Source of the DNA: Azolla caroliniana
Lineage: Eukaryota > Plantae > Polypodiophyta
Assembly (NCBI GenBank): GCA_043228905.1
Contig: JBHGNT010000013.1
Span: forward strand, 13,454,001 to 13,518,000
Length of the DNA: 64,000 nucleotides
Reading direction: 5' to 3'
The notes below the pieces were generated by a model, which searched no databases, was not told the DNA's origin, and saw nothing but the letters and a program-made list of their open reading frames with translations. Shown one piece after another: positions 1,663-59,523 of this stretch; the stretch's first letter is position 1; each line of letters begins with the position of its first letter. A program made the translations under genes and the position numbers.

Positions 1663-4650
1663 TCAATTGTCTCCCATTACTGATGCTTTACATACAGGGC
1701 ACTGATTCTTTTGTACTAGCCATTGCTTGATGCATGCTAAGTGATGACTATGTCCACATTGCAGCACCCCAAGTTCAACAGTCTCCTCAAATTCTTCCTA
1801 AACAAAGTTTTACTAACAGGGTTAAAAAAGTTGCAGATTGAATAACAAATCATTTAAAACCACGGTTAATTATCTGGTAGTGTATACTTTTTGCCAATAA
1901 CCTAGGTTAGCTATTGATCAAGGATACATTCAACAATCCGTTTGCCAATAGTCAACTGCACAATGGAAGTTGATCAGTTTTATCTACCTGGCATATGGTG
2001 CATTTGATCGCAATATCTTCAGGAGAATAGCTAATGCCGGTATCTGGTGGGACATAGAGAACTGTTTGCACACATTTCATAATCGATTCCTCACTCAAAC
2101 CTGTGTTGACATTTCCTATTCGCTCTTCAAGGGCTAAAAGTTCCTGGTAGTCAAGCCATTCGAGAATACTAAGCCTACATGTTTGCTTTTTAAAGGAAAT
2201 GGTTCTTTGCAGAGATCCTATACCTCATATGACATGTTGTCTATGTCTATCCGCATGTCTCTATGTCTATCATGCAGACGAACTCCACCAAGAAGTATCG
2301 TGGCTTCAAGCATAAGTATTTGCTGTAAATACAGCCATTACAGAAAGTTCATGGTTATTAAGTAATATATGAAATAAAACAGGATGGATGCTAGGATTGC
2401 CCAAATCAATTACCTCATAGGATAGTTCTTCATCCATCTCTATATCCTGCAATGCTGACAAAATCTGTCCCAGAATACCACAAAGAGAAAATGTTATTAA
2501 ACCAGAACATGCAGAAAATATCATTCTATGTGGTTACTTAAGCAGGATTCCACAGCAATTTCAATTTCTATGACTGAGTACCTCTGCAAACAATTCATGG
2601 AAGCAGTCAATTCTATGTAAAAGATAGGTCAAAAAAAGGAATGGAAAACCATCCAATACATAGTGCAATGAAACTACTAAATCAATAGCCCAACTAACGA
2701 CCATCATCCAATCCAAAACAGTGAAAGGAGGATTACCTCAGAGAGACTGTCTGCTGTTAGGAGTTGGTGCACCTCATCATTGGGCATGGAAGACCCAAAA
2801 GCCATGGTCTCTAATCCAGAAGAATCATGTCCATTGGTTTCTTCATTTGGTGATGGTGTAGATCGAAGGACCTGTGGATTGTAGGAATCATGGATGGCAC
2901 GGCGAGGAGGAAGTAAATTGCTAGACTCAGGAAACACTTCAAAAACAGATTGTCGAGATGGCCTTGCTGGAGGAGGAGGCCCTGAGAAAGATGGCCGAGT
3001 ATATTGTAACTCGTGCATTCTGGATGTATTAGAACTAGTTGATGATGAGGTAAGTCCATTTCTGTTTGGATTTCTGATGCCCTCTCTGGATGGATCATGT
3101 TGATTTCCATATATGTTCCTCCTCAAACCCCGCTGGTTTGATAATTGATTTGATAAATTCTCACTAAATGCAGGAATTGGTTCAAGAAAAGCATTGTTGA
3201 ACCTAGGCAAAGATTCAAACCTGTAATCATTCCTGAAGAACCTATCATTATTTCCTCCACTATAGTTTGTTGCCAGTGGCCTGTTAGCTGCAGGTGGAAC
3301 TGGATTTGTATTAATCATATCCATCCTCATATCAACTGAAACCGGATTTCTATGATATCTTGTCTCCATCTGGAGAAAAGGGGCAGATACTCTCACTCCT
3401 AGGGATGGATCAAACTCAGTACCAAGGAAATGCTGCTCTTGAGATTGGTTATTCATCATATTCGGTGTTTGTTCGAAGTTTAAGGATCTGCTATTTTCTG
3501 AATGCCCTTGACCCAAACAGATACCTCTGGATGCTTCCACTTCCTCAGTAAGACCTAACAACCTTGAATCCTTCCTTGGACAGAGATGATCACCTCCACC
3601 AACCACTACACTTGAAGTGGAAGGCACGGCATCCAATGCAGAAGAGCATGCGAGATTATTCAGAGATGAAGCAGATACAGATGGCAAGACATCTGATGCA
3701 GACGTACACATCATGTTACTTAAAGCACGATGGCTCGATCCAGTGACATTACCCTTATTCCTTTGCCTCAAATCAGTTGGTCCGACTCTGTGACTATTGA
3801 ACGAAGTTTTCTTTTTACCTATCTGATCACCAACTGCTGTGGAGTTGGATTGTCCGAGGAATTTCGAATTATTTACGGTGCTGCGGGTTTTTGGAAAGGA
3901 TAGCCTTTTCTCATGAGAGATTAGACTGGTTTCCCCTGGGAAGACCTCACCATTCTGTCGGTATCTTTTATCCAAACTTAAAGGAGCTGTAATATCATCA
4001 ATATGAGGTGCCTTAGACGAAGAGCCTTTGCGTAGGAATTTATGTGACATACTACTGGATGCAGCATCATATGGCATGGATTGATCAGAAATCAAAGCTT
4101 TATTTGCCATACGATGGGACCTTGTTGTTGATGGTGGTGTCGAATGGATTCCCCAATTCAACTTACATGAATCTTTACCTGCTTTATATCTCCTAGAATC
4201 TTTGTCAATAATTCGTCTGTTCATTTCACTGGAAACACATGGTTGCGTCAAAGCATCAGAATTTTGGTTGTTCACATCAGAATTAAGAGTTCCTCCAATA
4301 TCTGCATCATGTTCAGATCCTGATTCATCAGAACTCCCTACTAGATGCAACCTTTCACTAAGTATTGGTGACGAGAAAGAATCTGTATTCCCAGTAGAGG
4401 CATCAGAACAATGTGCACAACTATTCAATGAGCTAGTACTTGCATACTCCTCCTTAGGGCTGATCCAGCGATAGACACAGGAAGGTGTGTTTCCAGAATG
4501 TCGGTGGCATGCAGAACTGAAGTTTGAATTTGTGTTACATTTTATGTTGTCATCACCAATGAGAGCCTTTGATCGAGAATGATTGATTCTCTTTTCATTG
4601 GACGTGTGGCTGCTTAATCTTTGAGGATAATGCATGTTTAGACCACTGAC
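1663..4650 (-). CDS. RING-H2 E3 ubiquitin ligase, CTL/MBR/RHG1A-like, ~770 aa, spliced
   Basis: GT-AG phase-0 exons at 4650-2737 (Ser/Asn-rich, ATG at 4635), 2446-2414 (DIEMDEELSYE), 2322-2224 (..DRHRDMRIDIDNMSYE), 2143-1988 (ELLALEERIGNVNTGLSEE..KCTICQ) and 1797-1663 (EEFEE..LQCGHSHHLACIKQWLVQKNQCPVCK..stop). It has the YEELL motif and a C3H2C3 RING. The true start codon and 5' UTR exons are uncertain. Confidence 0.93.
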
Positions 4651-5409
4651 CTATCAATAAAAAATAACTTTGTGATGATATTCCTACCCTTGAGAGTGTA
4701 TCTGATGAAGAAACAATGACGAGCTATCTGTGCATATGCAAAAGTTTGTTATTTGAGAAAGAATTAAGCATGTGAGATCAAGTGAATCAATTTAAACATG
4801 TGCTTACATAGAAAATGGTCACAATCAATTTAGAGAAAATCAGGCAAACTAAATATATAAGTACCTGTAACCTGACACTCTAGTTACGAGAATGAAAAGG
4901 TACATAATGAAATCAATCAAATAGCATACAGAACCATATGGTGATGATAGTTTCAACCAAGAGAATGTCCGTTGCAGATATCATGTGCATATGATTCCAC
5001 AGTTTGATCTTTGGAAACCTTGTTCAGACTATCTCGGGAAAATAAGGAATGATATAAAGGAATCGGCAGACAATGAGGCAGACAATGAGACGAAGAAGAA
5101 CATCTGATCTTTGCAGGAGAAGAAAACACAGAAACAGTAAATGTTGTAGATAAGAAAATCTGACCTGTGTAAGACTGAAGAAATCACAGAAACAGTGCGG
5201 ATATTATCAATGACGAAATGGCTGATCGTCTTATATGATGTGAAGATCACTCCATGATTTGATCTTCAGAAGTCCTGTAAACAGAAGCAATATGGCAATT
5301 CAGGTTCCGAACCTCTCCAGTATAGAAGGAATGGCCGTTCGAATAAATCAGTAAGCAAATATGGACAAGAGGATATTCCAATCGATGTAAGAGGGAAGAA
5401 AAGCTCGGG

Positions 5410-5412
<3 letters not shown>

Positions 5413-5442
<30 letters not shown>
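5413..5442. repeat. (GA)n microsatellite upstream of the E3 ligase CDS
   Basis: Perfect dinucleotide run. Confidence 0.95.
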
Positions 5443-5446
<4 letters not shown>

Positions 5447-5625
5447 AGTGAAAGGAGTTACTGTGAAAACAGAGAATACAAAGGAGAAAAGAATAGGAGG
5501 TGTGGCTCTGATTTTGGAAATGACGAGTCAAACGGAAGAGAAAGGAGGAAAATGACCTTTGAATTGTTCCAGGTCAACCATCTGACAGATCAGATCGACG
5601 GCCTAAGAGAACTTCTGATAAGATA

Positions 5626-6234
5626 CGAAAGCTTCATCACACCGTAGCCACAGGCTGTCGTTGAAAGCTAGGTCAACGAGCTCACAGATAGATTGCTTAA
5701 TAGTTCCGCTGATACAAGAAGAAGCTTCAAAACTCCGTATCTGCCGCCGCTATTAGCGGTTACTATCTTTCTGCAGGTATCTTGCTTTTTTATGATGCAG
5801 ATGAAGATCGTCTTCTCAGCAGGTCATCACATGGAATAAGCTTCAAAGTAACCATATTCTACAAAGTTCACCGAGGCTAAGGCTCTTTCTTCAAGTTCGA
5901 TGTTTGTTTCTGCTGAACGACAAGACCGTCTCATCAGCAGGTCAAGACATGTAAGAAGCTTGAAGCTGCCATAGCCGAAATTTGAATAGCCGACTTTCAA
6001 AGTTGTTGTGGCAACGAGCTTTCTAGCAAGTATAACATTATATTTCTGACGGCATAGTAGGGCGTCTTCAAACGGTTCTCACGTTCGTGGAAGAAGCTTC
6101 AAAAACTCCATAGCCAGATGTAGAGCAGCAACACTATTGTGATCAGCGCTATGATCTTTCGGCAACTACAATGATGATGCTGTTGGAGAAGGACAACGAC
6201 TCAAGAAGCAAAAGAAGCTTCAAAACGCCATAGC
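5626..6234 (-). promoter_or_regulatory. Array of six ~23-nt related sites (plus-strand consensus AAGAAGCTTCAAAACTCCATAGC) upstream of, or in the 5' leader of, the E3 ligase
   Basis: Copies at 5626-5648, 5719-5741, 5835-5858, 5953-5975, 6091-6114 and 6212-6234, separated by largely unrelated spacers. The repeat is directly visible, but its function is inferred. Confidence 0.6.
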
Positions 6235-6563
6235 TAGAAGCAGTCGAGCAGCAGACTGGTGGGGTTAAGGTTATGAATACATATGAAATATACCTGCAAA
6301 ACGTGGAACTTTCTTTTAGTTTCTGCAGGTGGAGAAGAAGAAGAAGATGGATGGATGGATGGATGGATGAATGGTTTCTCAGCAGGTCATGACGGCGCAC
6401 ATACAGTACTAATGAAGGAGAAGGTCCTGCTGTTAAGTAAAGAGCGCTATCTGATCTATACAGATTCTGACGGCTCTTTCTCTTTCTCTTTCTTTCTCTT
6501 TCTGCTGTGGCTGTGCAAAAGGCGTCTGTCTGCTGTTACGCTTTAGGTTTAGGAATGGGAGAC

Positions 6564-6745
6564 TAGCAATCTGCAACAGCTCGATTCGGTTCGGTTCGGT
6601 TTGAGATGATCAAAACCGAACCGGTTTGGAACCGAACCGTTTAAAATTTTTTAAAAAAACCTGACCTGCGAAACCGTTAAACCGAACCGAACCACGAAAC
6701 CGTTAAACCATAAAACTGTTAAAACCATGGTTTCGGTTTTCAACT
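6564..6745. mobile_element. hAT-type end with clustered AACCG/CGGTT subterminal repeats
   Basis: It begins TAGCAAT, like the TIR of the MITE at 23527, and is followed by many aaccg/cggtt motifs. No matching right end or TSD was found. Confidence 0.5.
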
Positions 6746-7779
6746 TAGGTCAAATTTTAATTTTTAAAATTCAAAATATTTCATCACCAAGACTTCTTTG
6801 GGATTTTCCACATGCCATCTCAATGCCATAGTTCTTGTGATAGAGTGGACATGTCCCACATGCCGTTATGCACAAGATCTATTATGACAATGAGCAAACA
6901 TATACTTGCATCCTCGTCTATTTGGTTTTTTAGAACAACAATTTTTATGGCAACGAAATGAGTTAGTTAACCCATCGGATAACGCCATAAAGAGCCAGTT
7001 AATTGCTTGCATACTCAATGTTACCACTCTTTAGGTTTTCACCGAAAACTTTGACATCCACCTTAATGAGATATAGGCTAAAGGTATGATGCATATTATA
7101 ATCTATTGGAAATTTGGAAGTATAGACAATGTAAGTGAAAACAATGTTTGTCTTTAGCAATACCTCCAATATTTATTATAGGAAGCAACATGTTGCTACT
7201 TCCCCTATGTTCGAGATCATTGTGCTAGACACATGTCACATTTGGTTTTAACTTAACAAGTTGTATTCAAAAAGCTAAACAAGTTTGTTGTCACTTCTCT
7301 TGTCGACTTTTCTCTTCTAATTTGTGATGTGGCATATCTTTATCCTTTTACATATAAAGTTGCATAGCCTTGGACGAGGTATGGGATACTTTCTCGTTTT
7401 GGGTTATGACTGCAAAACACATTGCACAAGAACGATGTCGTGTGTTTTGTGAGGTATTCATAGGCGTAAATAAGAATCGTATTATTGTTGAACAAAGAAT
7501 TCAAACTCTTCGTACCCTTGTTGTATGCTCATTTGAAATCATCTACACTTTCAATTTATACCAATTGGACAAAGTTGTACTTTCTAAATCCCTCAAAATG
7601 TGTGCTATTGGAAACAAAACATACGTCTAGTGTGTTGGTTTGCAATCATAGCTTTTGGCTTTTATGATGTACATATACATATACGTTATGCATGATCTTG
7701 ATTGTAAGATTGCAACACTCGCTAGCTAGAACCACATATGCTTTTAGAATGTGTTTGGTTAATGTCAACCACGAGAGTA

Positions 7780-23526: not shown

Positions 23527-23854
23527 TAGCAATGGGCACGGTTTGGGCTCAAACCAAACCGAACCGTTAAGCCATGGCTTAACGGTTTATTGGTTCAAAG
23601 ATAAATAAATCGTTTGGTTTGGTTTCGGTTCGGTTCGGTTTTGAATTTCACGGTTTAGCGGTTTCGACTTATGTGGTTTGGTTTAAAGGTTTAAAGGTTT
23701 GGTTTGGTTTTGATTTATGATAAACCAATTTGGTTTGGTTCTAAATCTTGCATAAACGGTTTGGTTTAAATGGCTTCATAAAATTTTTAATATAAATAAA
23801 TGGTTTGGTTTGGTTTCAAGGCCAAGAAACCGAACCGAACCGCGCCCATTGCTA
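23527..23854. mobile_element. hAT-family MITE
   Basis: TIRs TAGCAATGGGCACGGTT and AACCGCGCCCATTGCTA, a perfect 8-bp TSD CTCACTAT (23519-23526, 23855-23862) and internal ggttt/aaccg repeats. Confidence 0.95.
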
Positions 23855-32845: not shown

Positions 32846-32978
32846 GAACTACAATATATTTCTACCTGAATTGAAACCATATTGGGGTGGGTGAAGTCTC
32901 TCTCCTTGTTTCTCAAGGATGACAAAACCATCATCATCATCATTTAGTACACATTCTAAAGAGAGATATGTCACAATC

Positions 32979-33140
32979 ATGGTCATGATCAATGTCAAGG
33001 TCAAGGTCAAGGTCATGGTCATGGTCATGATCAATTTCGTCCTCATCATAGTCAAGGTCAAGGTCATGGTCATGATCAATTTCGTCCTCATCATAGTCAA
33101 GGTCATGGTCATGGTCATGATTAATTTCATTCTCATCATA
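32979..33140. repeat. (GGTCAT/GGTCAA)n hexamer array with a higher-order unit of ~40-50 bp
   Basis: Hexamer runs are separated by atcaatttcgtcctcatcata. Confidence 0.9.
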
Positions 33141-33370
33141 CTTAGTGTGATCCACATGCTAAGCACTAGACTGAATAAATGCATATATATATACAAGAAT
33201 ACATATATGCTTATGTACATGTTCTCACACTTCCAATTGAAGTAGCATAAGTCTGTTCAAAAATTCAAAGCTAGAGTTATATGTAGTATATATTTTTCTA
33301 GTATTTTTGCTCTTTTCAAAATCTTCATCAGGGAAAACACAGTCACAGAGAGAGAGAGAGAGAGAGAGAG

Positions 33371-36298
33371 ATGAGGGCCATGGCCATAGACCTCGGTGTC
33401 TCCGCAGACCCTAGAAACAGCAACTCCTGTGCCCCATCACATCCAGACAGTCTCGTCCTCTCCCTTTCTCAGAGACCTGCGCAGAGCTTCGTAGAGAAAG
33501 AGAAGCAGAAGCAGAAAGAAATGGAGAAAGAGAAGGATAAGACGAAGTTGGAAGAGAACGAGGAGGATAAAGAGAAAGAGAAGAAGAATAAGAAGAAGAT
33601 TGCGATTTCTGGTTCGTGTATTAGCCTGCGCCAGAAACCATACCTTCGCTCTGATTCTAGTTCCTATTGGAATCCTGGAAGAATTAGAACGAAGAAGAAA
33701 AAGAAAGAACACAGCCATAAGATCCTATCTGTTCTTGAAGCCTTGCAATCTGGTCTCGACGTTCCTTCTGCCATGGAACCTTGGCAAGGTAAGCTTTCTC
33801 CTCGAGAAGAAGCCATTATTCTCAGTGAACAAAATGATGTGAACGTTGCCATGTATCTCTTTGATTGGTTCCGAAACCTTGAAAATCATATCCCTAATGT
33901 GTTCAGATACAATATCATGTTCAAAATCATTGGGAAGCACAGAAAATGGGATCTTTTAAATGATTTCTGGGAGAAAATGTCCGTGCAAGATAAAATTAGG
34001 CCAAGCAATGTTACATACAGCACCATTATCGATGCCTATACTAAATCTGGATTGAAAGAACAAGCTCTTAAATGGTTTGAAGGCATGTCTGAGGAGAAAA
34101 TTCAGCCAGATGAAGTAACTCTGAATACAGTGCTGAATCTGTATAAATGGTCTGGGAACTATTCAGAAGCTGAAACTTTTAGCAAGAAGTTTCTCTATGG
34201 AATAGACATGGAAGATGATAAATGCATCCGGCCACAGAAAGTAGATACATATAACACACTCATTGACTTATATGGAAAGGCAGGTAGCCTTGATAATGCT
34301 TCTCGTCTATTTGAAGACATGATATCATTTGGTCTCAAGCCTGATACTGTTTCTTTCAACACAATGATGCAAATATGTGGTAGCAATAATCGTCTTGCTG
34401 AAGCGGAAGCTTTATTTGAGAAAATGAAAGATAGTGGATGTGAACCTGATGTTGGTACTTACAATATACTGATTGCATTGTATGTGAAATCCTGCAACTT
34501 TCAATCAGCGCAAGAAACTCTTTTGAGCTTGAAGCAATCTCAGGTCTTACCAAATGCTGTCTCGTACAGGACTCTTTTTCTTGGTTATACCTCTAGTGGT
34601 TTGGTGATTGAAGCAGAAAACCTTGCTATGGAAATGGAAGAAGCTGGATTTCTTCTTAATGCAGCATTGCTTGTGCAGTTTATTCAAATGTATATACGAG
34701 CAGGAGATTATGTGAACGCTTCTCAGCAATTTAGTAGACTCAAAATGTGTGGAGACTTGACGAGTGATAACTTGTTCCCTTTGATTAATTCATATGCTGA
34801 ACGTGGATCATGGAAAAAAGCAGAACAGATTTTCCTTTCTTCCACAGAGCTAGGTGTGCAAAAAAGTAGCTTGTTTTATAATGTGATGATTAAGGCATAT
34901 GGCCTAGGTAAGAGGTATTGGAAAGCCTTTAGTTTGTTTGAAACCATGGAGTCTGAAGGGATTATAGCTGATGAGGCGACTTTTAACACAATGATACATG
35001 CTTCCGCAAAACGTGGTTCAGTAGGAAAAGCTGTTGCTTTACTTGCTGAAATGCATTACAGAGGATTCAAGCCTAGTGTTTCTAGTTATACATCTGTCCT
35101 TTCCACATTTTCTAAATTACGTCAGGTCAAAGAAGCTGAAAATGTATTTCAAGAAATGAACAGTGTCCATACACATGTAGATGAAGTGGCATACAATGCC
35201 ATGGTGAATGCTTATGCTGAGGCTGGTATGCTGAAAGAAGCAGAAGCTACTTTGTGTGCTATGGAGGTTGAAGGTCATACGACAAATAGCATTGCTTGTT
35301 GCATGATGATGAAACTTTATGGGAAACTTGACATGTTGGAGAAAGCTAAAGAAATGTTCAAGAAGGTTGAATGTATGCAAGTGCACCCAAATGTGCAAGC
35401 TTGGAATATTCTTCTTGATATTTATGGGAGGACTGGAATGATTGACACCGTGTGGGTTTCTTTTAAGAAAATGCAGAAAGGTGGTTATTTTGACAAAACT
35501 TCATGCAAGATCATTATACGTATATTGAAAAAAACAGGAAGGATCCAAGAAGCATTTTCTGTTGCAAGTACTATGAAAGAGTTGGGTTTGTTTTTTGGTG
35601 TTTCCTCTTTCAACGTGGTGATAGATCTGTATGCAAACAATGAGAAACATCAAGAAGCCCTTGCCATTTTTCAAGAAATGGTCAAGCAAGGATGCTGGCC
35701 TGATTTAAGAACTTACTTTTGTCTCAAGGATATCATAGAGAACTCAGGCCTATTAAAAGAGGCAGTGTGGAAATTGAAATTGGCTCGTAAGCAAAGAAGT
35801 AGTATACATTGTCTGATTGCTATGGCAAGTCTTTATTGTTTTGTTGGGATGCAAACAGAAGCTATGGAAACATGTTCTAGGATAAAAGAAAGTGGACTAG
35901 TGCTTGATATAATTGCCTATAATGCAATACTTAATGTTTATGGAACTAATGGACGGTTTGATGAAGCTGTGCGGATATTCCTTGAGTTGCAGAGAAATGG
36001 ACCAAATCCAAATGTTGTGACCTTCACTACAATGCTTTTATTGTATGGTAAAGCTGGATTGGTTGAAGGTGTGACAAGGTTGTTCAGCAGAATGAAACAA
36101 GTAGAATGCAGACCAGATGAAGCTTGCTTCAAAGCAGTTATTAACATATACAAACAAGCTGGAAGATTTGATCTAGCTAGCATGGTTACACATGAGATGC
36201 AATTTGTGCAGTTTTTAAAAGAAAGGAGTGATTCTCGATTAAGGGAGTCAGAAAGTGTGGAAGATGAAGAAGAGAGATTTGAGGAAGCAAAAAATTAG
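33371..36298 (+). CDS. P-class pentatricopeptide repeat protein, intronless, At3g23020/At1g73710-like
   Basis: 975-aa ORF with tandem 35-aa PPR motifs (YNTLIDLYGKAGSLDNASRLFEDMISFGLKPDTVS and similar). The N-terminal LSPREEAIILSEQ..FDWF..PNVFRYNIM is typical of that subfamily. There is no E/DYW domain, and (GA)n directly precedes the ATG. Confidence 0.95.
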   Translation: MRAMAIDLGVSADPRNSNSCAPSHPDSLVLSLSQRPAQSFVEKEKQKQKEMEKEKDKTKLEENEEDKEKEKKNKKKIAISGSCISLRQKPYLRSDSSSYWNPGRIRTKKKKKEHSHKILSVLEALQSGLDVPSAMEPWQGKLSPREEAIILSEQNDVNVAMYLFDWFRNLENHIPNVFRYNIMFKIIGKHRKWDLLNDFWEKMSVQDKIRPSNVTYSTIIDAYTKSGLKEQALKWFEGMSEEKIQPDEVTLNTVLNLYKWSGNYSEAETFSKKFLYGIDMEDDKCIRPQKVDTYNTLIDLYGKAGSLDNASRLFEDMISFGLKPDTVSFNTMMQICGSNNRLAEAEALFEKMKDSGCEPDVGTYNILIALYVKSCNFQSAQETLLSLKQSQVLPNAVSYRTLFLGYTSSGLVIEAENLAMEMEEAGFLLNAALLVQFIQMYIRAGDYVNASQQFSRLKMCGDLTSDNLFPLINSYAERGSWKKAEQIFLSSTELGVQKSSLFYNVMIKAYGLGKRYWKAFSLFETMESEGIIADEATFNTMIHASAKRGSVGKAVALLAEMHYRGFKPSVSSYTSVLSTFSKLRQVKEAENVFQEMNSVHTHVDEVAYNAMVNAYAEAGMLKEAEATLCAMEVEGHTTNSIACCMMMKLYGKLDMLEKAKEMFKKVECMQVHPNVQAWNILLDIYGRTGMIDTVWVSFKKMQKGGYFDKTSCKIIIRILKKTGRIQEAFSVASTMKELGLFFGVSSFNVVIDLYANNEKHQEALAIFQEMVKQGCWPDLRTYFCLKDIIENSGLLKEAVWKLKLARKQRSSIHCLIAMASLYCFVGMQTEAMETCSRIKESGLVLDIIAYNAILNVYGTNGRFDEAVRIFLELQRNGPNPNVVTFTTMLLLYGKAGLVEGVTRLFSRMKQVECRPDEACFKAVINIYKQAGRFDLASMVTHEMQFVQFLKERSDSRLRESESVEDEEERFEEAKN

Positions 36299-53624: not shown

Positions 53625-53698
53625 GCTTTCATAGCTCAGTTGGTTAGAGCACCCGTTTAGTAAGCGGGAGGTCTTGAGTTCGACTCTCAATGAAAGCA
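53625..53698 (+). tRNA. tRNA-Thr (anticodon AGT)
   Basis: GCTTTCA/TGAAAGC acceptor stem, D arm GCTC..GAGC, anticodon arm CCCGT-TTAGTAA-GCGGG and T arm TTGAG-TTCGACT-CTCAA. Confidence 0.97.
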
Positions 53699-53707
53699 AG
53701 TGAACCC

Positions 53708-54053
53708 ATCTTCTTGCCTCCAGTGCAGTCTTATATCTGCCGTTTCCCTTTACACATTTATCGTTCAGATCTAAACGCCCAATTTCTATCCCGAAGTCAT
53801 TTGGTTTTACTTCTGTTAGTTTGATCTCAGTCTCTTATGTTTTTGGTATTATTCAGTGTTCACAACGAGAATCCAGTCAGATCTTCTTGCCTCCAGTGCA
53901 GTCTCATATCTGCCGTTTCGCTTTACACATTTATCGTTCAGATCTAAACGCCCAATTTCTATCCCGAAGTCATTTGGGTTTACTTCTGTTACTTTGATCT
54001 CAGTCTCTTATGTTTTTGGTATTATTCAGTGTTCACAACGAGAATCCAGTCAG
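53708..54053. repeat. 173-bp tandem duplication immediately 3' of the tRNA
   Basis: 53708-53880 and 53881-54053 are nearly identical. Confidence 0.95.
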
Positions 54054-54865
54054 AAGAAGAAGAAACTTCCTAGCCTTGAATTGAATCTTTTACCTTTCAA
54101 ATAACTTGGGGTAATGACGATTATCATGATAAATTGTTATGATTTCATTATATGTACACCTATATTTCCCTACATATATACACATGTTGACCTTGTTTTG
54201 CTTCCTTGATATTCTCCACCCTTCTTTTCTTTGTATTGTTGTATGCTAAGCACTGCAATTGAGTTTCTATGTAAAATCTGTTCGATTGTTTGTGTGAAAA
54301 AGAGTATTCAGATTTTTTGGATTGTATATATACACGGGAGAATCACATTGTGGAATTCCTCAATAAGCTCAGATTTCACTATATTTGCGACAAGTTGTCT
54401 AGACTTATTATGTTGGCCAATTGAAAATTCAGTAATGTGATTCTTACAGTGATCTGATAGGAAAATATGGCTAAACTTTACAGCAGATCATATATTTAGA
54501 AATCTATAATTGATGGTAGTCTTGACAAACACATTCACCTCAAGCTGATGCTTCTCTATCATCGTATCACATATGTTTTGTAACACATATAGGCGTGCCT
54601 TTCGGCATATCGATCAGAGCACATAAAATGGTCAGCTTCTCACTATAGCACCACAATAGATCTCGTCCTCAATGTGATGATGCCAATCATTCATTCATAT
54701 TAAACTCTTTAGGCCTGTAGATTCTCTTGTAATCTCTTATTTGACAAAATTTCTTGCTTCAAAAGAAACATCTACACACACTTCCAATCTTTTAAAATAT
54801 AGTTCCTTTATATATATATATATATATCTTATATTCCATTAACCCTAACAAAACATTGTCACTCC

Positions 54866-56491
54866 CTACACAATGCTATGGGACATAGGAGGATACTGCA
54901 TCACTAGAAAATTGAAGGTGGTGGGACAACCTAGGGAGAGGCCTTTGGGAACAAAGGTGAAGACTAGGGACGACTCCGATGTGAGGTTGAGGGCACGAAT
55001 CCGTCCACCGACATGGAGCCTGAAGTCACTCGAATTCCTGCCTTCGCTAAATTGTGCTGCATTGTGGAAGGTGCCCACGAATTCCTCGCATCCGGAGGTT
55101 GTGTTCGTGGTGGCAGACGGAAGGTTCAAAAAGACATCTAGAATGGCGGGCATGCCCTCGGTCCATGTCAATCCGGCCACTATGAGGTTCTCCTCCTCTG
55201 CCCCTTGTGCCACCGCAGCCATGTCTCGCTTCACTGTGGCGGAGCACGGGGCGAGGATCCACTCCCCCGTCTTGCACAACTTGTCCGAGCTTCTTAATTC
55301 CGCCACTCCGTCGCTAAGCCTCACCGGCACTCCTTGGACCATCCATGGGACATCCACCTCCTCATACACATACCCTAAGTTCCTTGTGTCCAATGCATCC
55401 CTCACCTTCACTCTCACGAGCTCCGCGTCCTCGTTGTAGAATGCAAACTCGGCATCCAAATACTCGGCTTCGTCAATGTCCTCGTTCCCTTCCATGTCCT
55501 TCCAGAGCACCCACATCCGGTCTAGCTCCGCGTGGTGCGGATAGAACACCGGATCCCTAGCGGCCGCGTAAAGCGACCCCATGTCTTTCCCCCCGACCGT
55601 GTTCGCCGAACCCGACCACACATGCATCGAGTTGTGGGGGAACTCCTCCACTGTCCCATATAGGGTCCTGGGAGCCTCTCCATGCTTGAACGGATAACCG
55701 AAGAATCTATACTTGCTCTCGGCATCCCTAACAAGGGACCTGTACACGTATGCCGCGTTCTCGTGGAGTTGTTCCTCCGTGGACCGTGTTTCGGCATTGT
55801 AGGCGTAGTCGATGGCGACCACCGCGGGTGGCATGTGATCAGGATTCCTATAGTTATCCATGAGGACGGGGTATTGGGTGTACATCCATGGCATGGTGGA
55901 GCCATTGGGATGGTCATAGTTCCAGAAGGGGAGCGAGAAAGTGTCATCATCTAGGAGCTTGGCCAGGATCCTCTCGTGGAAGTAGAGGTACCATCTATGG
56001 AAGGGGAAGAAGAGCCAGTTCCCATGGACTTGGAAGAGGAGGTCGGTAGAGTTGTTTTGGTTATAGACTGTGTTGCAATAAGCACAATGGATGTTTGCTT
56101 GTTGGGCGAAGGAACGAGGGTCTTCGGGGGGTAGGTCCTTCATGAGGGAGTAAGCTCTAGCAAGTGTGTCTCCATAGGTGGCATTGGGAAGGTGGGCTGG
56201 CCTTCGGACCTTGAGGGTAGGATAAAGTGTTGGGTTGGGTGTGAAGAGGGGTAAGGGTGTTGTAGCTGGGGGAGGGGCACAACAATTCAAAATCTCGAGT
56301 TCTAATGCGGGGATGTCTGATGGGGCATTGCAACTAGTCATGTTTGGGGATAAGACTGTGCATTGTGCTCGCAATATGAGGTTAGAATTGTGAAGACCAT
56401 AATTAGTGTTATACATAAGAATGATGATGAAGGTGGTGGAGAAGGAGAAGCACATGGGTTTCTTCATTGTTGTAAAAATTGAACCCAACAT
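54866..56491 (-). CDS. PPO: Polyphenol oxidase (catechol oxidase), intronless, probably secretory-type
   Basis: CuA motif QQANIHCAYC..HGNWLFFPFHRWYLYFHERIL and CuB motif PHNSMHVW..AARDPVFYPHHAELDRMW. A DWL-like YLDAEFAFYNE..VRVKVRD..LGYVY and a C-terminal LDVFLN..EEFVGTF domain follow. The N-terminus is short and hydrophobic. Confidence 0.96.
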   Translation of the reverse strand: MLGSIFTTMKKPMCFSFSTTFIIILMYNTNYGLHNSNLILRAQCTVLSPNMTSCNAPSDIPALELEILNCCAPPPATTPLPLFTPNPTLYPTLKVRRPAHLPNATYGDTLARAYSLMKDLPPEDPRSFAQQANIHCAYCNTVYNQNNSTDLLFQVHGNWLFFPFHRWYLYFHERILAKLLDDDTFSLPFWNYDHPNGSTMPWMYTQYPVLMDNYRNPDHMPPAVVAIDYAYNAETRSTEEQLHENAAYVYRSLVRDAESKYRFFGYPFKHGEAPRTLYGTVEEFPHNSMHVWSGSANTVGGKDMGSLYAAARDPVFYPHHAELDRMWVLWKDMEGNEDIDEAEYLDAEFAFYNEDAELVRVKVRDALDTRNLGYVYEEVDVPWMVQGVPVRLSDGVAELRSSDKLCKTGEWILAPCSATVKRDMAAVAQGAEEENLIVAGLTWTEGMPAILDVFLNLPSATTNTTSGCEEFVGTFHNAAQFSEGRNSSDFRLHVGGRIRALNLTSESSLVFTFVPKGLSLGCPTTFNFLVMQYPPMSHSIV

Positions 56492-56549
56492 CCTTCTTTG
56501 TTATGGGTTTGTGCTTGCTTGTTATAAAGAGAATGAGATGCTGCTTATT

Positions 56550-58810: not shown

Positions 58811-59119
58811 TAAAGACAATAAATGAAAAAAAAGAGCACTTATTTTTCCCATTTCAAACGTGTTCGTTTCCAAACATTTGAATGCTTGCACGAACACGAA
58901 TATTACGTTCTATGCAAGTTTGGACCATAGGAAATATTGGACAAAGAGGTTGGAGATATTGGTGCAAAGACCCTAAACTCCAATGTAAGGTTACAAGCTA
59001 AAATGTGTCATCTATTCCTTCTTCTCTACCCCTTAGGATGCTAAACACATGTCTACTTCAATGATGGTGGGTGAGAAACCATTCCCCCATATTGCATATC
59101 TTATCTGAGCTAGTTAATC

Positions 59120-59310
59120 CTTGGTTGGTAGTCCTTCCACCATCCATGTGGCATCCACTTCCTCACACATATAATACCTTAAGTTCATTGTATCCAAAGT
59201 GTCCCTCATATTCACTCTCATGAGCTCTACTTCCTCATTGTAGAATGCAAATTTGGCATCAAAATACTCATCGTCATGTCCCCATTCCCCTTTATATCCT
59301 TCCAAAGTGG
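59120..59310 (-). pseudogene. PPO gene relic (post-CuB/DWL region)
   Basis: LWKDIKGNGD, then after a frameshift DDEYFDAKFAFYNEEVELMRVNMRDTLDTMNLRYY..EEVDATWMVEG. This is collinear with the intact PPO. Confidence 0.88.
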
Positions 59311-59523
59311 TGGGAAACCGGTCCCTCCTGATAGGATCGGATGGATCGGGAAGGTATCCGGTGTGAACCAGAAGTAGGGACATGTTAGTAAACATGTTCT
59401 AATGCGCCCGTTGAGGCCATATTTGTAAATAGCCCTAAAGTTATATAAGTATAAATATAACTAGGGCAATATGAAGTTGGTGCGGTTGTAAGTTAGAACT
59501 TTATTTTGAGTCGTTACCATTGT

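What the first reader, a model, noticed from the sequence alone, without database searches (positions are those of the whole stretch)
5626..6234. Six ~23-nt near-identical sites with unrelated spacers upstream of a RING E3 ligase: candidate multi-site small-RNA target array or serial mini-uORF leader
Seen: six copies of the mRNA-sense consensus GCTATGGAGTTTTGAAGCTTCTT, spaced about 93-138 nt apart. The spacers are mostly non-homologous, so this is not a simple tandem repeat. A weaker seventh copy (ATG GAG TGA) lies at ~5240-5258. The best-conserved half (TGAAGCTT) would pair with the 5' region of a guide like AAGAAGCUUCAAAACUCCAUA, which I do not recognise as a known miRNA. Each site also carries ATG or ACG in good context opening tiny ORFs (MAF*, MEFLKLLPRT*, MAASSFLHVLTC*, ACG-GAG-TTT-TGA). 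Established: PHO2/UBC24 has five miR399 sites in its 5' UTR, and minimal uORFs control NIP5;1. Inference: this may be an undescribed post-transcriptional control module on a ubiquitin ligase. A GA-rich stretch at ~6480-6500 and a possible donor at 5556 suggest the sites lie in the leader, but this is unproven.
Basis: partly seen in the sequence, partly recalled or inferred. Interest (0 to 1): 0.78.

Follow-up and report, generated by a model that had tools for sequence, protein, structure and literature searches.

The report
Repeated sites in fern ligase leader
A fern ubiquitin-ligase gene carries six copies of a 20-base word in the spliced, untranslated leader of its mRNA; they likely serve as binding sites for a small RNA not yet identified, much as in the phosphate gene PHO2, though control by tiny upstream reading frames remains a close rival.

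Summary
The repeats are real and lie in the mRNA. Spliced contigs join 5557 to at least 6320 to the start codon of a CTL-type RING-H2 ligase, using the donor at 5556.

The claim of six near-identical sites is too strong. S1, S2 and S5 are 1-2 edits from the consensus, S3, S4 and S6 are 4-7, and the seventh (12 edits) is no copy. Two spacer pairs are homologous, so the array arose by tandem duplication. Even so, the word is kept far better than its spacers.

Related copies bring S1 and S2 to the exact consensus, AUG-GAG-UUU-UGA. They show no significant recent constraint, and one copy has S1 broken.

No guide RNA, hairpin locus or Rfam match was found; no genome or small-RNA reads were available.

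Best reading: a PHO2-like small-RNA target array with an unknown guide (0.40). Rivals: serial three-codon uORFs (0.25), relaxed relic (0.15), protein-binding array (0.12), hairpin cluster (0.05). New variant of a known kind; interest 0.5.

The parts
5557..6320 (-). First (or first seen) exon of the 5' leader; holds all six sites; true 5' end not determined, beyond 6320
   Evidence: Contigs of X1, X2 and X15 cover it and splice from it; donor GT at 5556
6212..6234 (-). Site S1, 1 edit from consensus; AUG-GCG-UUU-UGA
   Evidence: X8 and X15 carry the consensus base at 6227; the second copy in X15 lacks 4 nt inside the site
6091..6114 (-). Site S2, consensus plus one extra U; 10-codon uORF in the window, 3-codon in related copies
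   Evidence: X7, X8 and the X15 second copy all lack the extra base at 6101
5953..5975 (-). Site S3, 4 edits; UCA in place of UGA; 12-codon uORF
   Evidence: no change to the UCA is listed for X7 or X8
5835..5858 (-). Site S4, 7 edits including one extra base
   Evidence: the second copy in X2 and X15 lacks the extra base at 5850
5719..5741 (-). Site S5, 2 edits; ACG-GAG-UUU-UGA
5626..5648 (-). Site S6, 7 edits; ACG start, GUG in X2 and X15
5875..5977 (.). Imperfect hairpin with S3 as one arm; the only unit that folds better than its shuffles
   Evidence: z -3.6 on plus, -3.1 on minus; two pair-breaking changes at 5877 and 5883 in the second copy
5571..6389 (-). Second recurring word TGACCTR, starting at 6389, 5944, 5826, 5675 and 5576
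   Evidence: 5 found, 0.19 expected
5275..5556 (-). Leader intron 1, 282 nt, GT-AG
   Evidence: Joint in X1 and X2; ends read
5165..5274 (-).
   Evidence: Included in X1, X2 and X15; one X15 contig has a 26-nt loose end at 5555 that matches the next exon, so it skips this one
4728..5164 (-). Leader intron 2, 437 nt, GT-AG
   Evidence: Joint in X1, X2 and X3
1663..4727 (-). Last 92 nt of leader and the coding region of a 779-aa CTL-type (YEELL) RING-H2 E3 ligase; coding exons 4635-2737, 2464-2414, 2322-2224, 2143-1988, 1797-1663
   Evidence: Open frame, GT-AG ends, YEELL consensus at residue 678, RING-H2 at the C-terminus; Pfam zf-RING_2; fern relatives.

Best explanation
The six words in the spliced leader of this fern RING-H2 ligase mRNA are likely binding sites for one small RNA not yet identified, which would repress the ligase by cleavage at the well-matched sites (S1, S2, S5) and by non-cleaving binding at the poorer ones. 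Shown: the sites lie in the leader on the sense strand, arose by tandem duplication, and kept the word while the spacers decayed. Inferred: selection acts on base pairing, and the guide is a 21-mer complementary to columns 1-20 of the word. Its first base would be unpaired and bases 2-9 would face the near-invariant UGAAGCUU block. Not shown: that the guide exists, where it is encoded, and what signal induces it. The array looks redundant, with single sites being lost in single lineages.
For: Location in the leader and spacing of 93-139 nt, like PHO2, whose five 20-21-nt sites lie 54-170 nt apart in one 5' UTR exon in bean (PMC3645745, passages). The conserved stretch is the length of a small RNA: 11 invariant columns lie within 20, against 3 in the other 135 columns. 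An evenly decaying six-copy repeat gives that with P=2e-5 at 45% identity between units and 6e-4 at 50%. S1, S2 and S5 are 87-91% alike, while the U1/U2 and U1/U5 spacers align no better than shuffles. Related copies carry the consensus base in S1 and the consensus length in S2. S5 keeps the whole word although it has ACG, and it shares ACG with its paralogue S6, so the loss of AUG is old; pairing explains this better than a reading frame does. All 3 changes seen in core columns between lineages are A>G or C>U on the mRNA strand, which G:U pairing would tolerate, given a G in the guide opposite the U/C column. PHO2 also mixes cleavable and uncleavable sites with uORFs (PMC5699049, passages).
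Against: No guide was found. Five strings of the guide or site gave 0 papers in full text. None was seen in the supplements of three fern small-RNA papers, though these negatives are weak: one paper lists conserved candidates, and another gives no novel miRNA sequences as text. Rfam gave nothing at threshold. S3, S4 and S6 score 5-9.5 against a guide built from the consensus itself, whereas the bean PHO2 pairings score up to 5 with one exception at 6. The variable columns face guide positions 10-14, the cleavage region. Between lineages the sites are not significantly more conserved than the spacers: X7 3/47 against 21/189, X8 1/47 against 20/189 (p=0.051), X2 second copy 5/70 against 10/287, pooled p=0.51. 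S1 is broken in the X15 second copy. The two conserved blocks coincide with a strong-context AUG and an in-frame UGA, which a random guide would rarely contain. The simulation result weakens to P=0.05 if the units are really 60% alike.
Confidence: 0.4

Rival explanations
1. Each word is a ribosome-sized element: a start codon in strong context, two free codons, UGA and a fixed 3' context. The leader would then be a series of three-codon uORFs that throttle scanning and reinitiation, or stall terminating ribosomes, in the manner of GCN4 (recalled) or NIP5;1.
For: The invariant blocks are the start with its +4 G and the stop with five bases after it; the variable columns 8-12 are the two codons between. 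The only 5 of 15 leader AUGs with purine at -3 and G at +4 are those of S1-S4 and the cassette-exon copy (the first four share one origin). Related copies restore the three-codon frame at S2 and S4. Two of the three substitutions in these codons of the good sites are synonymous (GAG>GAA in X7, UUU>UUC in the X2 second copy). S6 alternates between ACG and GUG. Arabidopsis uORFs usually lack a Kozak preference, and 2-10-codon uORFs repress strongly (PMC10896292, passages).
Against: In the window only S1 is an AUG-started three-codon frame. S2 and S4 are frameshifted, S5 and S6 start with ACG, and S3 has UCA, with no change to it listed for X7 or X8. S1 has lost its stop in the X15 second copy. 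A frame with free codons does not explain why S1, S2 and S5 share the middle six bases. AUG density in the leader (14.3 per kb) equals that of its introns (13.9 per kb).
Confidence: 0.25
2. The array is a relic: old tandem duplications whose word was once selected or locally homogenised and is now drifting, with little present function.
For: Spacer homology between U3/U4 and U5/U6 and a shared second word. Substitution rates in sites and spacers between lineages are similar. Every lineage but X8 shows damage to at least one good site. S1/S2 homology extends weakly upstream (p=0.012, 1 of 30 flank tests).
Against: Even decay is rejected unless the units are 60% alike or more, and only 3 of 135 columns outside the 20-column core are invariant. 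The core columns changed at 1 of 26 positions in X7 and X8 together, against 30 of 189 in spacers (p=0.08).
Confidence: 0.15
3. The word is a two-part binding site, UAYGG-N5-UGAAGCUU, for an RNA-binding protein, or in DNA form for a transcription factor acting just downstream of the promoter.
For: Two invariant blocks at a nearly fixed distance with a free middle, and a palindromic AAGCTT core. One- base changes of spacing are tolerated.
Against: The middle bases are identical in S2, S5 and the related-copy S1. The full heat-shock unit GAAnnTTC is present in only 3 of 6 copies (read from the sequence; motif recalled). The word occurs nowhere else in the 64 kb window.
Confidence: 0.12
4. The units are degenerate hairpins, a polycistronic MIRNA-like cluster in which the word is the mature small RNA, or structures that hide the AUGs.
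For: S3 lies in a stem-loop with z -3.6 and -3.1. Units U1-U4 have partly complementary stretches at one aligned place. Own-spacer pairing gives p=0.013 for S3 and 0.067 for S2.
Against: The other four sites give p=0.23-0.89. The whole exon folds at z -1.2. The partner arm of S2 lies in the fastest-changing stretch, and the S3 arm has two pair-breaking changes in the second copy.
Confidence: 0.05

Closest known systems
PHO2/UBC24 5' UTR with five miR399 sites (PMC3645745 and PMC5699049, passages; PMC11263492, passages)
   Same: Several 20-21-nt sites in one exon of a long, intron-containing 5' UTR, 50-170 nt apart, on a ubiquitin-pathway gene; good and poor sites mixed; uORFs in the same leader.
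   Different: The gene is a CTL RING-H2 E3, not an E2. The word is not a miR399 site (recalled sequence; by eye). No guide is known. Three of six sites are far more degenerate. Each site itself spans a start and a stop codon, whereas the PHO2 uORFs precede the sites.
NIP5;1 AUG-stop and tiny uORFs of Arabidopsis (PMC11915504, abstract; PMC10896292, passages)
   Same: Very short uORFs in a leader, able to repress translation or trigger decay.
   Different: The sites have two codons between start and stop, are repeated six times as one sequence, and half have lost the AUG or the stop.
Yeast GCN4 serial short uORFs (recalled, not read)
   Same: A series of 2-3-codon uORFs in which the bases after the stop set the outcome.
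   Different: GCN4 uORFs are not copies of one word; nothing here shows regulated reinitiation.
CTL family of RING-H2 ligases (PMC5764321, passages)
   Same: YEELL motif, splice junction inside it, RING-H2 with 14 residues between ligands 2 and 3, introns in the 5' UTR.
   Different: The passages read mention 5' UTR introns in five CTL groups but no repeated leader element.

Membership tests
PHO2/miR399-type multi-site target leader | Sites lie in the spliced 5' UTR on the sense strand | tested here: met
   Spliced contigs in X1, X2 and X15; GT-AG on the minus strand
PHO2/miR399-type multi-site target leader | Several sites of about 21 nt in unrelated or decayed spacers | tested here: met
   Six sites; word kept better than spacers
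PHO2/miR399-type multi-site target leader | All sites pair with one guide at a penalty of about 5 or less | tested here: not met
   S1, S2, S5 score 0-4.5; S6 5-9; S3 and S4 7-9.5 against a guide inferred from the consensus
PHO2/miR399-type multi-site target leader | An expressed small RNA from a hairpin locus matches the sites | tested here: inconclusive
   No match in papers or supplements searched; no genome; nothing laid from X17
PHO2/miR399-type multi-site target leader | Cleavage opposite guide positions 10-11 | not testable with these tools
   No degradome or raw reads offered
PHO2/miR399-type multi-site target leader | Sites conserved in orthologous leaders above background | tested here: inconclusive
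Minimum uORF (NIP5;1 type) | AUG directly followed by a stop codon | tested here: not met
   The sites have two codons between start and stop; one AUG-UGA lies in a spacer at 5832
Tiny uORF (2-10 codons) | AUG-started frame of 2-10 codons in the leader | tested here: met
   S1 3 codons, S2 10 codons, cassette exon 2 codons; S3 (12) and S4 (21) are longer; S5 and S6 have no AUG
Tiny uORF (2-10 codons) | Ribosome footprints on the frame | not testable with these tools
   No Ribo-seq available
Polycistronic MIRNA cluster | Each repeat sits in a well-paired, conserved stem-loop | tested here: not met
   1 of 6 units; arms not conserved
CTL RING-H2 E3 ligases | 21-residue YEELL consensus upstream of the RING | tested here: met
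   Match at residue 678 (consensus from PMC5764321)
CTL RING-H2 E3 ligases | RING-H2 with 14 residues between ligands 2 and 3, and a splice junction inside YEELL | tested here: met
   Spacing 14; predicted junction 2224/2143 splits SYE|ELL

The most novel reading that the evidence does not exclude
A fern small RNA binds directly over serial three-codon uORFs, covering both start and stop codon of each. The silencing complex would then gate ribosome scanning site by site, possibly switching the ligase on by hiding the upstream AUGs rather than off by cleavage. That would be a coupled small-RNA and uORF switch; my searches found no description of one.
Probability: 0.1. Interest if true: 0.8.

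Novelty: new variant of a known kind. Interest (0 to 1): 0.5.

Why it matters
PHO2 is the textbook plant case of a many-site small-RNA leader. A second, independently built array on a ubiquitin ligase in ferns would show that this design recurs, and it predicts the sequence of an unknown fern small RNA that one look at existing libraries could confirm. If the uORF reading is right instead, the repeats give natural variants of one ribosome-sized element (start changed, stop changed, frame shifted) for testing reinitiation rules in plants. If neither holds, it is a decaying leader repeat of little interest.

Tried and rejected
No genome is held for this window, so no search for a guide hairpin or for copy number was possible.

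Exact-pattern scans gave one hit in metagenome contigs (L001, inside a prokaryote-like ORF), one in prokaryote genomes (L002, Draconibacterium) and none in viral contigs. I take both hits as chance at these database sizes; no cyanobacterial hit appeared.

Rfam found only a tRNA at 53625 at gathering threshold. The 7 matches in 5100-6600 all have E 0.86 or worse and lie far below their cut-offs.

X17, a very small run, laid nothing; this is no evidence of absence. The lack of contig cover beyond 6320 is no evidence of the 5' end, because repeats there are skipped.

Protein-level selection on the plus strand: the copies read as a KKLQNSIA-like peptide, but third codon positions are invariant and the splice ends point to the minus strand, so I rejected it.

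A possible acceptor near 6295 is read through unspliced in the contigs.

Conserved plant miRNAs (miR390, miR159/319, miR167, miR168, miR172, miR395, miR399) were compared by eye from recall only; none explains both invariant blocks.

Earlier findings of the scan: no look-alike stretch and nothing bearing on this locus. Literature searches returned nothing relevant.

Full report
Gene and organism. The array lies upstream of a minus-strand gene whose five predicted coding exons give an open 779-residue frame with GT-AG introns. The C-terminus has a Pfam RING match, the 21-residue YEELL consensus, a splice junction inside it and a RING-H2 with 14 residues between ligands 2 and 3. It therefore meets the definition of the CTL ligases (PMC5764321, passages). 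The large first coding exon finds 5 relatives among 7991 scored candidates, at 30-35% identity; two are named from Adiantum. Their C-termini are 75-80% identical. The window is thus from a fern. No genome is held.

The sites are in the mRNA. Contigs of four runs were laid on 4300-6900. They skip 4728-5164 (X1, X2, X3) and 5275-5556 (X1, X2), with ends that read GT-AG on the minus strand, and most of both introns has no cover. Exonic cover runs from 5556 to about 6320 in X1, X2 and X15. The runs are only guessed to be RNA and contigs carry no strand, but the joints settle both points. The leader is at least 966 nt. One X15 contig skips the 110-nt middle exon.

What the repeats are. There are six copies, 1, 1, 4, 7, 2 and 7 edits from the consensus; the seventh is 12 edits away. 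Two blocks are nearly invariant, UAYGG (columns 3-7) and UGAAGCUU (columns 13-20; S3 has C at column 14), with five or six variable bases between. The alignment has 11 invariant columns within these 20 and 3 in the other 135. Spacers U3/U4 (z 8.3) and U5/U6 (z 5.6) are homologous and U1-U4 weakly so, and a second word recurs five times, so the origin is tandem duplication. Even decay does not explain the pattern. Simulated six-copy repeats without indels reach 11 invariant columns in 20 with P=2e-5 at 45% identity between units, 6e-4 at 50%, 0.01 at 55% and 0.05 at 60%. They would also show 10-23% invariant columns overall, against about 2% seen outside the core. Most spacer pairs align at or a few points above shuffle level.

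Related copies. X2 and X15 hold a second version of the gene (allele, homeologue or paralogue; not resolved), and X7 and X8, from two other organisms, align at 87-90% over 5925-6270. All three lack the extra base in S2. X8 and X15 carry the consensus base in S1, and the second copy lacks the extra base in S4. The shared ancestor therefore likely had S1 and S2 at the exact consensus, reading AUG-GAG-UUU-UGA. Against this, the X15 second copy has four bases deleted inside S1, and substitutions are not significantly rarer in sites than in spacers: X7 3/47 against 21/189, X8 1/47 against 20/189 (p=0.051), X2 second copy 5/70 against 10/287, pooled 9/117 against 40/487 (p=0.51). Limits of this test: indels and S1 were left out. 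The X7 list is complete (24 of 24). For X8, 27 of 33 places were shown; I used the 21 up to 6160 and assumed the hidden ones lie further on. X15 (23 of 36 shown) was not used. Strong retention among paralogues with little constraint between lineages is a real tension. It fits a redundant array that loses single sites, or selection that has recently relaxed.

Small-RNA reading. The conserved span of 20 columns fits a 21-nt guide with its first base unpaired and bases 2-9 on the invariant block. Against such a guide S1, S2 and S5 score 0-4.5, S6 5-9, and S3 and S4 7-9.5; without gaps, only S1, S5 and S6 in the whole window reach 6 or less. The guide is built from the sites, so the good scores are circular. 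The architecture matches PHO2: five 20-21-nt sites in one 5' UTR exon of bean, with cleavage verified (PMC3645745, passages), and in Arabidopsis two uncleavable sites and three uORFs (PMC5699049, passages). The three core changes between lineages are all wobble-type on the mRNA strand, which is suggestive only.

No guide was found. Five strings gave 0 papers. In PMC5569507 (passages and supplement searches) the 11-base guide string, CUCCAUA and CUCCGUA are absent; I saw 34 of 37 places with the 7-base core and none was the guide. The tables I saw there list candidates of conserved miRNA families. PMC8386757 (passages, section 23, supplement part 1 of 10 and searches) reports novel fern miRNAs whose sequences are not in the text held; they may be in figures I could not see. 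PMC5426797 (supplement search only) had no match.

uORF reading. The invariant blocks are exactly a start codon with its +4 G and an in-frame UGA with five bases after it. The only 5 of 15 leader AUGs in strong context belong to S1-S4 and the cassette-exon copy. Tiny uORFs repress strongly in Arabidopsis and usually lack such context (PMC10896292, passages); NIP5;1 shows stalling at an AUG-stop (PMC11915504, abstract). But in the window only S1 has the intact three-codon form. S5 and S6 share an old ACG, S3 has UCA, and S5 kept the whole word without an AUG. I rank this second.

Hairpin reading. Only S3 folds better than shuffles, the exon as a whole does not (z -1.2), and the partner arms change freely between lineages. 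I reject it as the main function.

Verdict. The word was selected at some time, but what reads it is not known. Small-RNA target array 0.40, serial uORFs 0.25, relic 0.15, protein-binding array 0.12, hairpin cluster 0.05. It works like PHO2's leader in design but cannot be filed as a proven member, because three sites fail the pairing test and the guide is missing. New variant of a known kind; interest 0.5.

Noticed in passing
window 6585-6740 and 23680-23767: A short inverted-repeat element (15-nt perfect arms at 6588-6602 and 6679-6693) just upstream of the gene. Unrelated contigs match it at high depth in all four runs, so it is probably a high-copy MITE-like repeat; a similar word array lies at 23.7 kb.
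   Followed up: no
window 5832-5827, minus strand: An AUG-UGA minimum uORF in the spacer just after S4.
   Followed up: no
window 5165-5274: Cassette leader exon, skipped in one X15 contig; it carries a 2-codon uORF in strong context, so splicing changes the uORF load.
   Followed up: partly
window 4300-6320: X2 and X15 each hold two versions of the gene, one like the window and one 87-97% alike, which suggests a hybrid, a polyploid or a recent paralogue.
   Followed up: partly
window 872-863 and 756-747, minus strand: A duplicated stretch about 115 nt apart, some 800-900 nt past the stop codon, begins with the first 9-10 bases of the leader word; probably chance.
   Followed up: no
window 53625-54054: A tRNA gene directly followed by two copies of a 173-nt unit at 97% identity.
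   Followed up: no
window 32977-33140 and 33302-36298: A repeat of TCATGG-like units that reads as His/Gly-rich in one frame, just upstream of a long PPR reading frame.
   Followed up: no
window 54866-56500 and 59114-59398, minus strand: A polyphenol oxidase gene in one open frame and a nearby fragment resembling its middle part.
   Followed up: no
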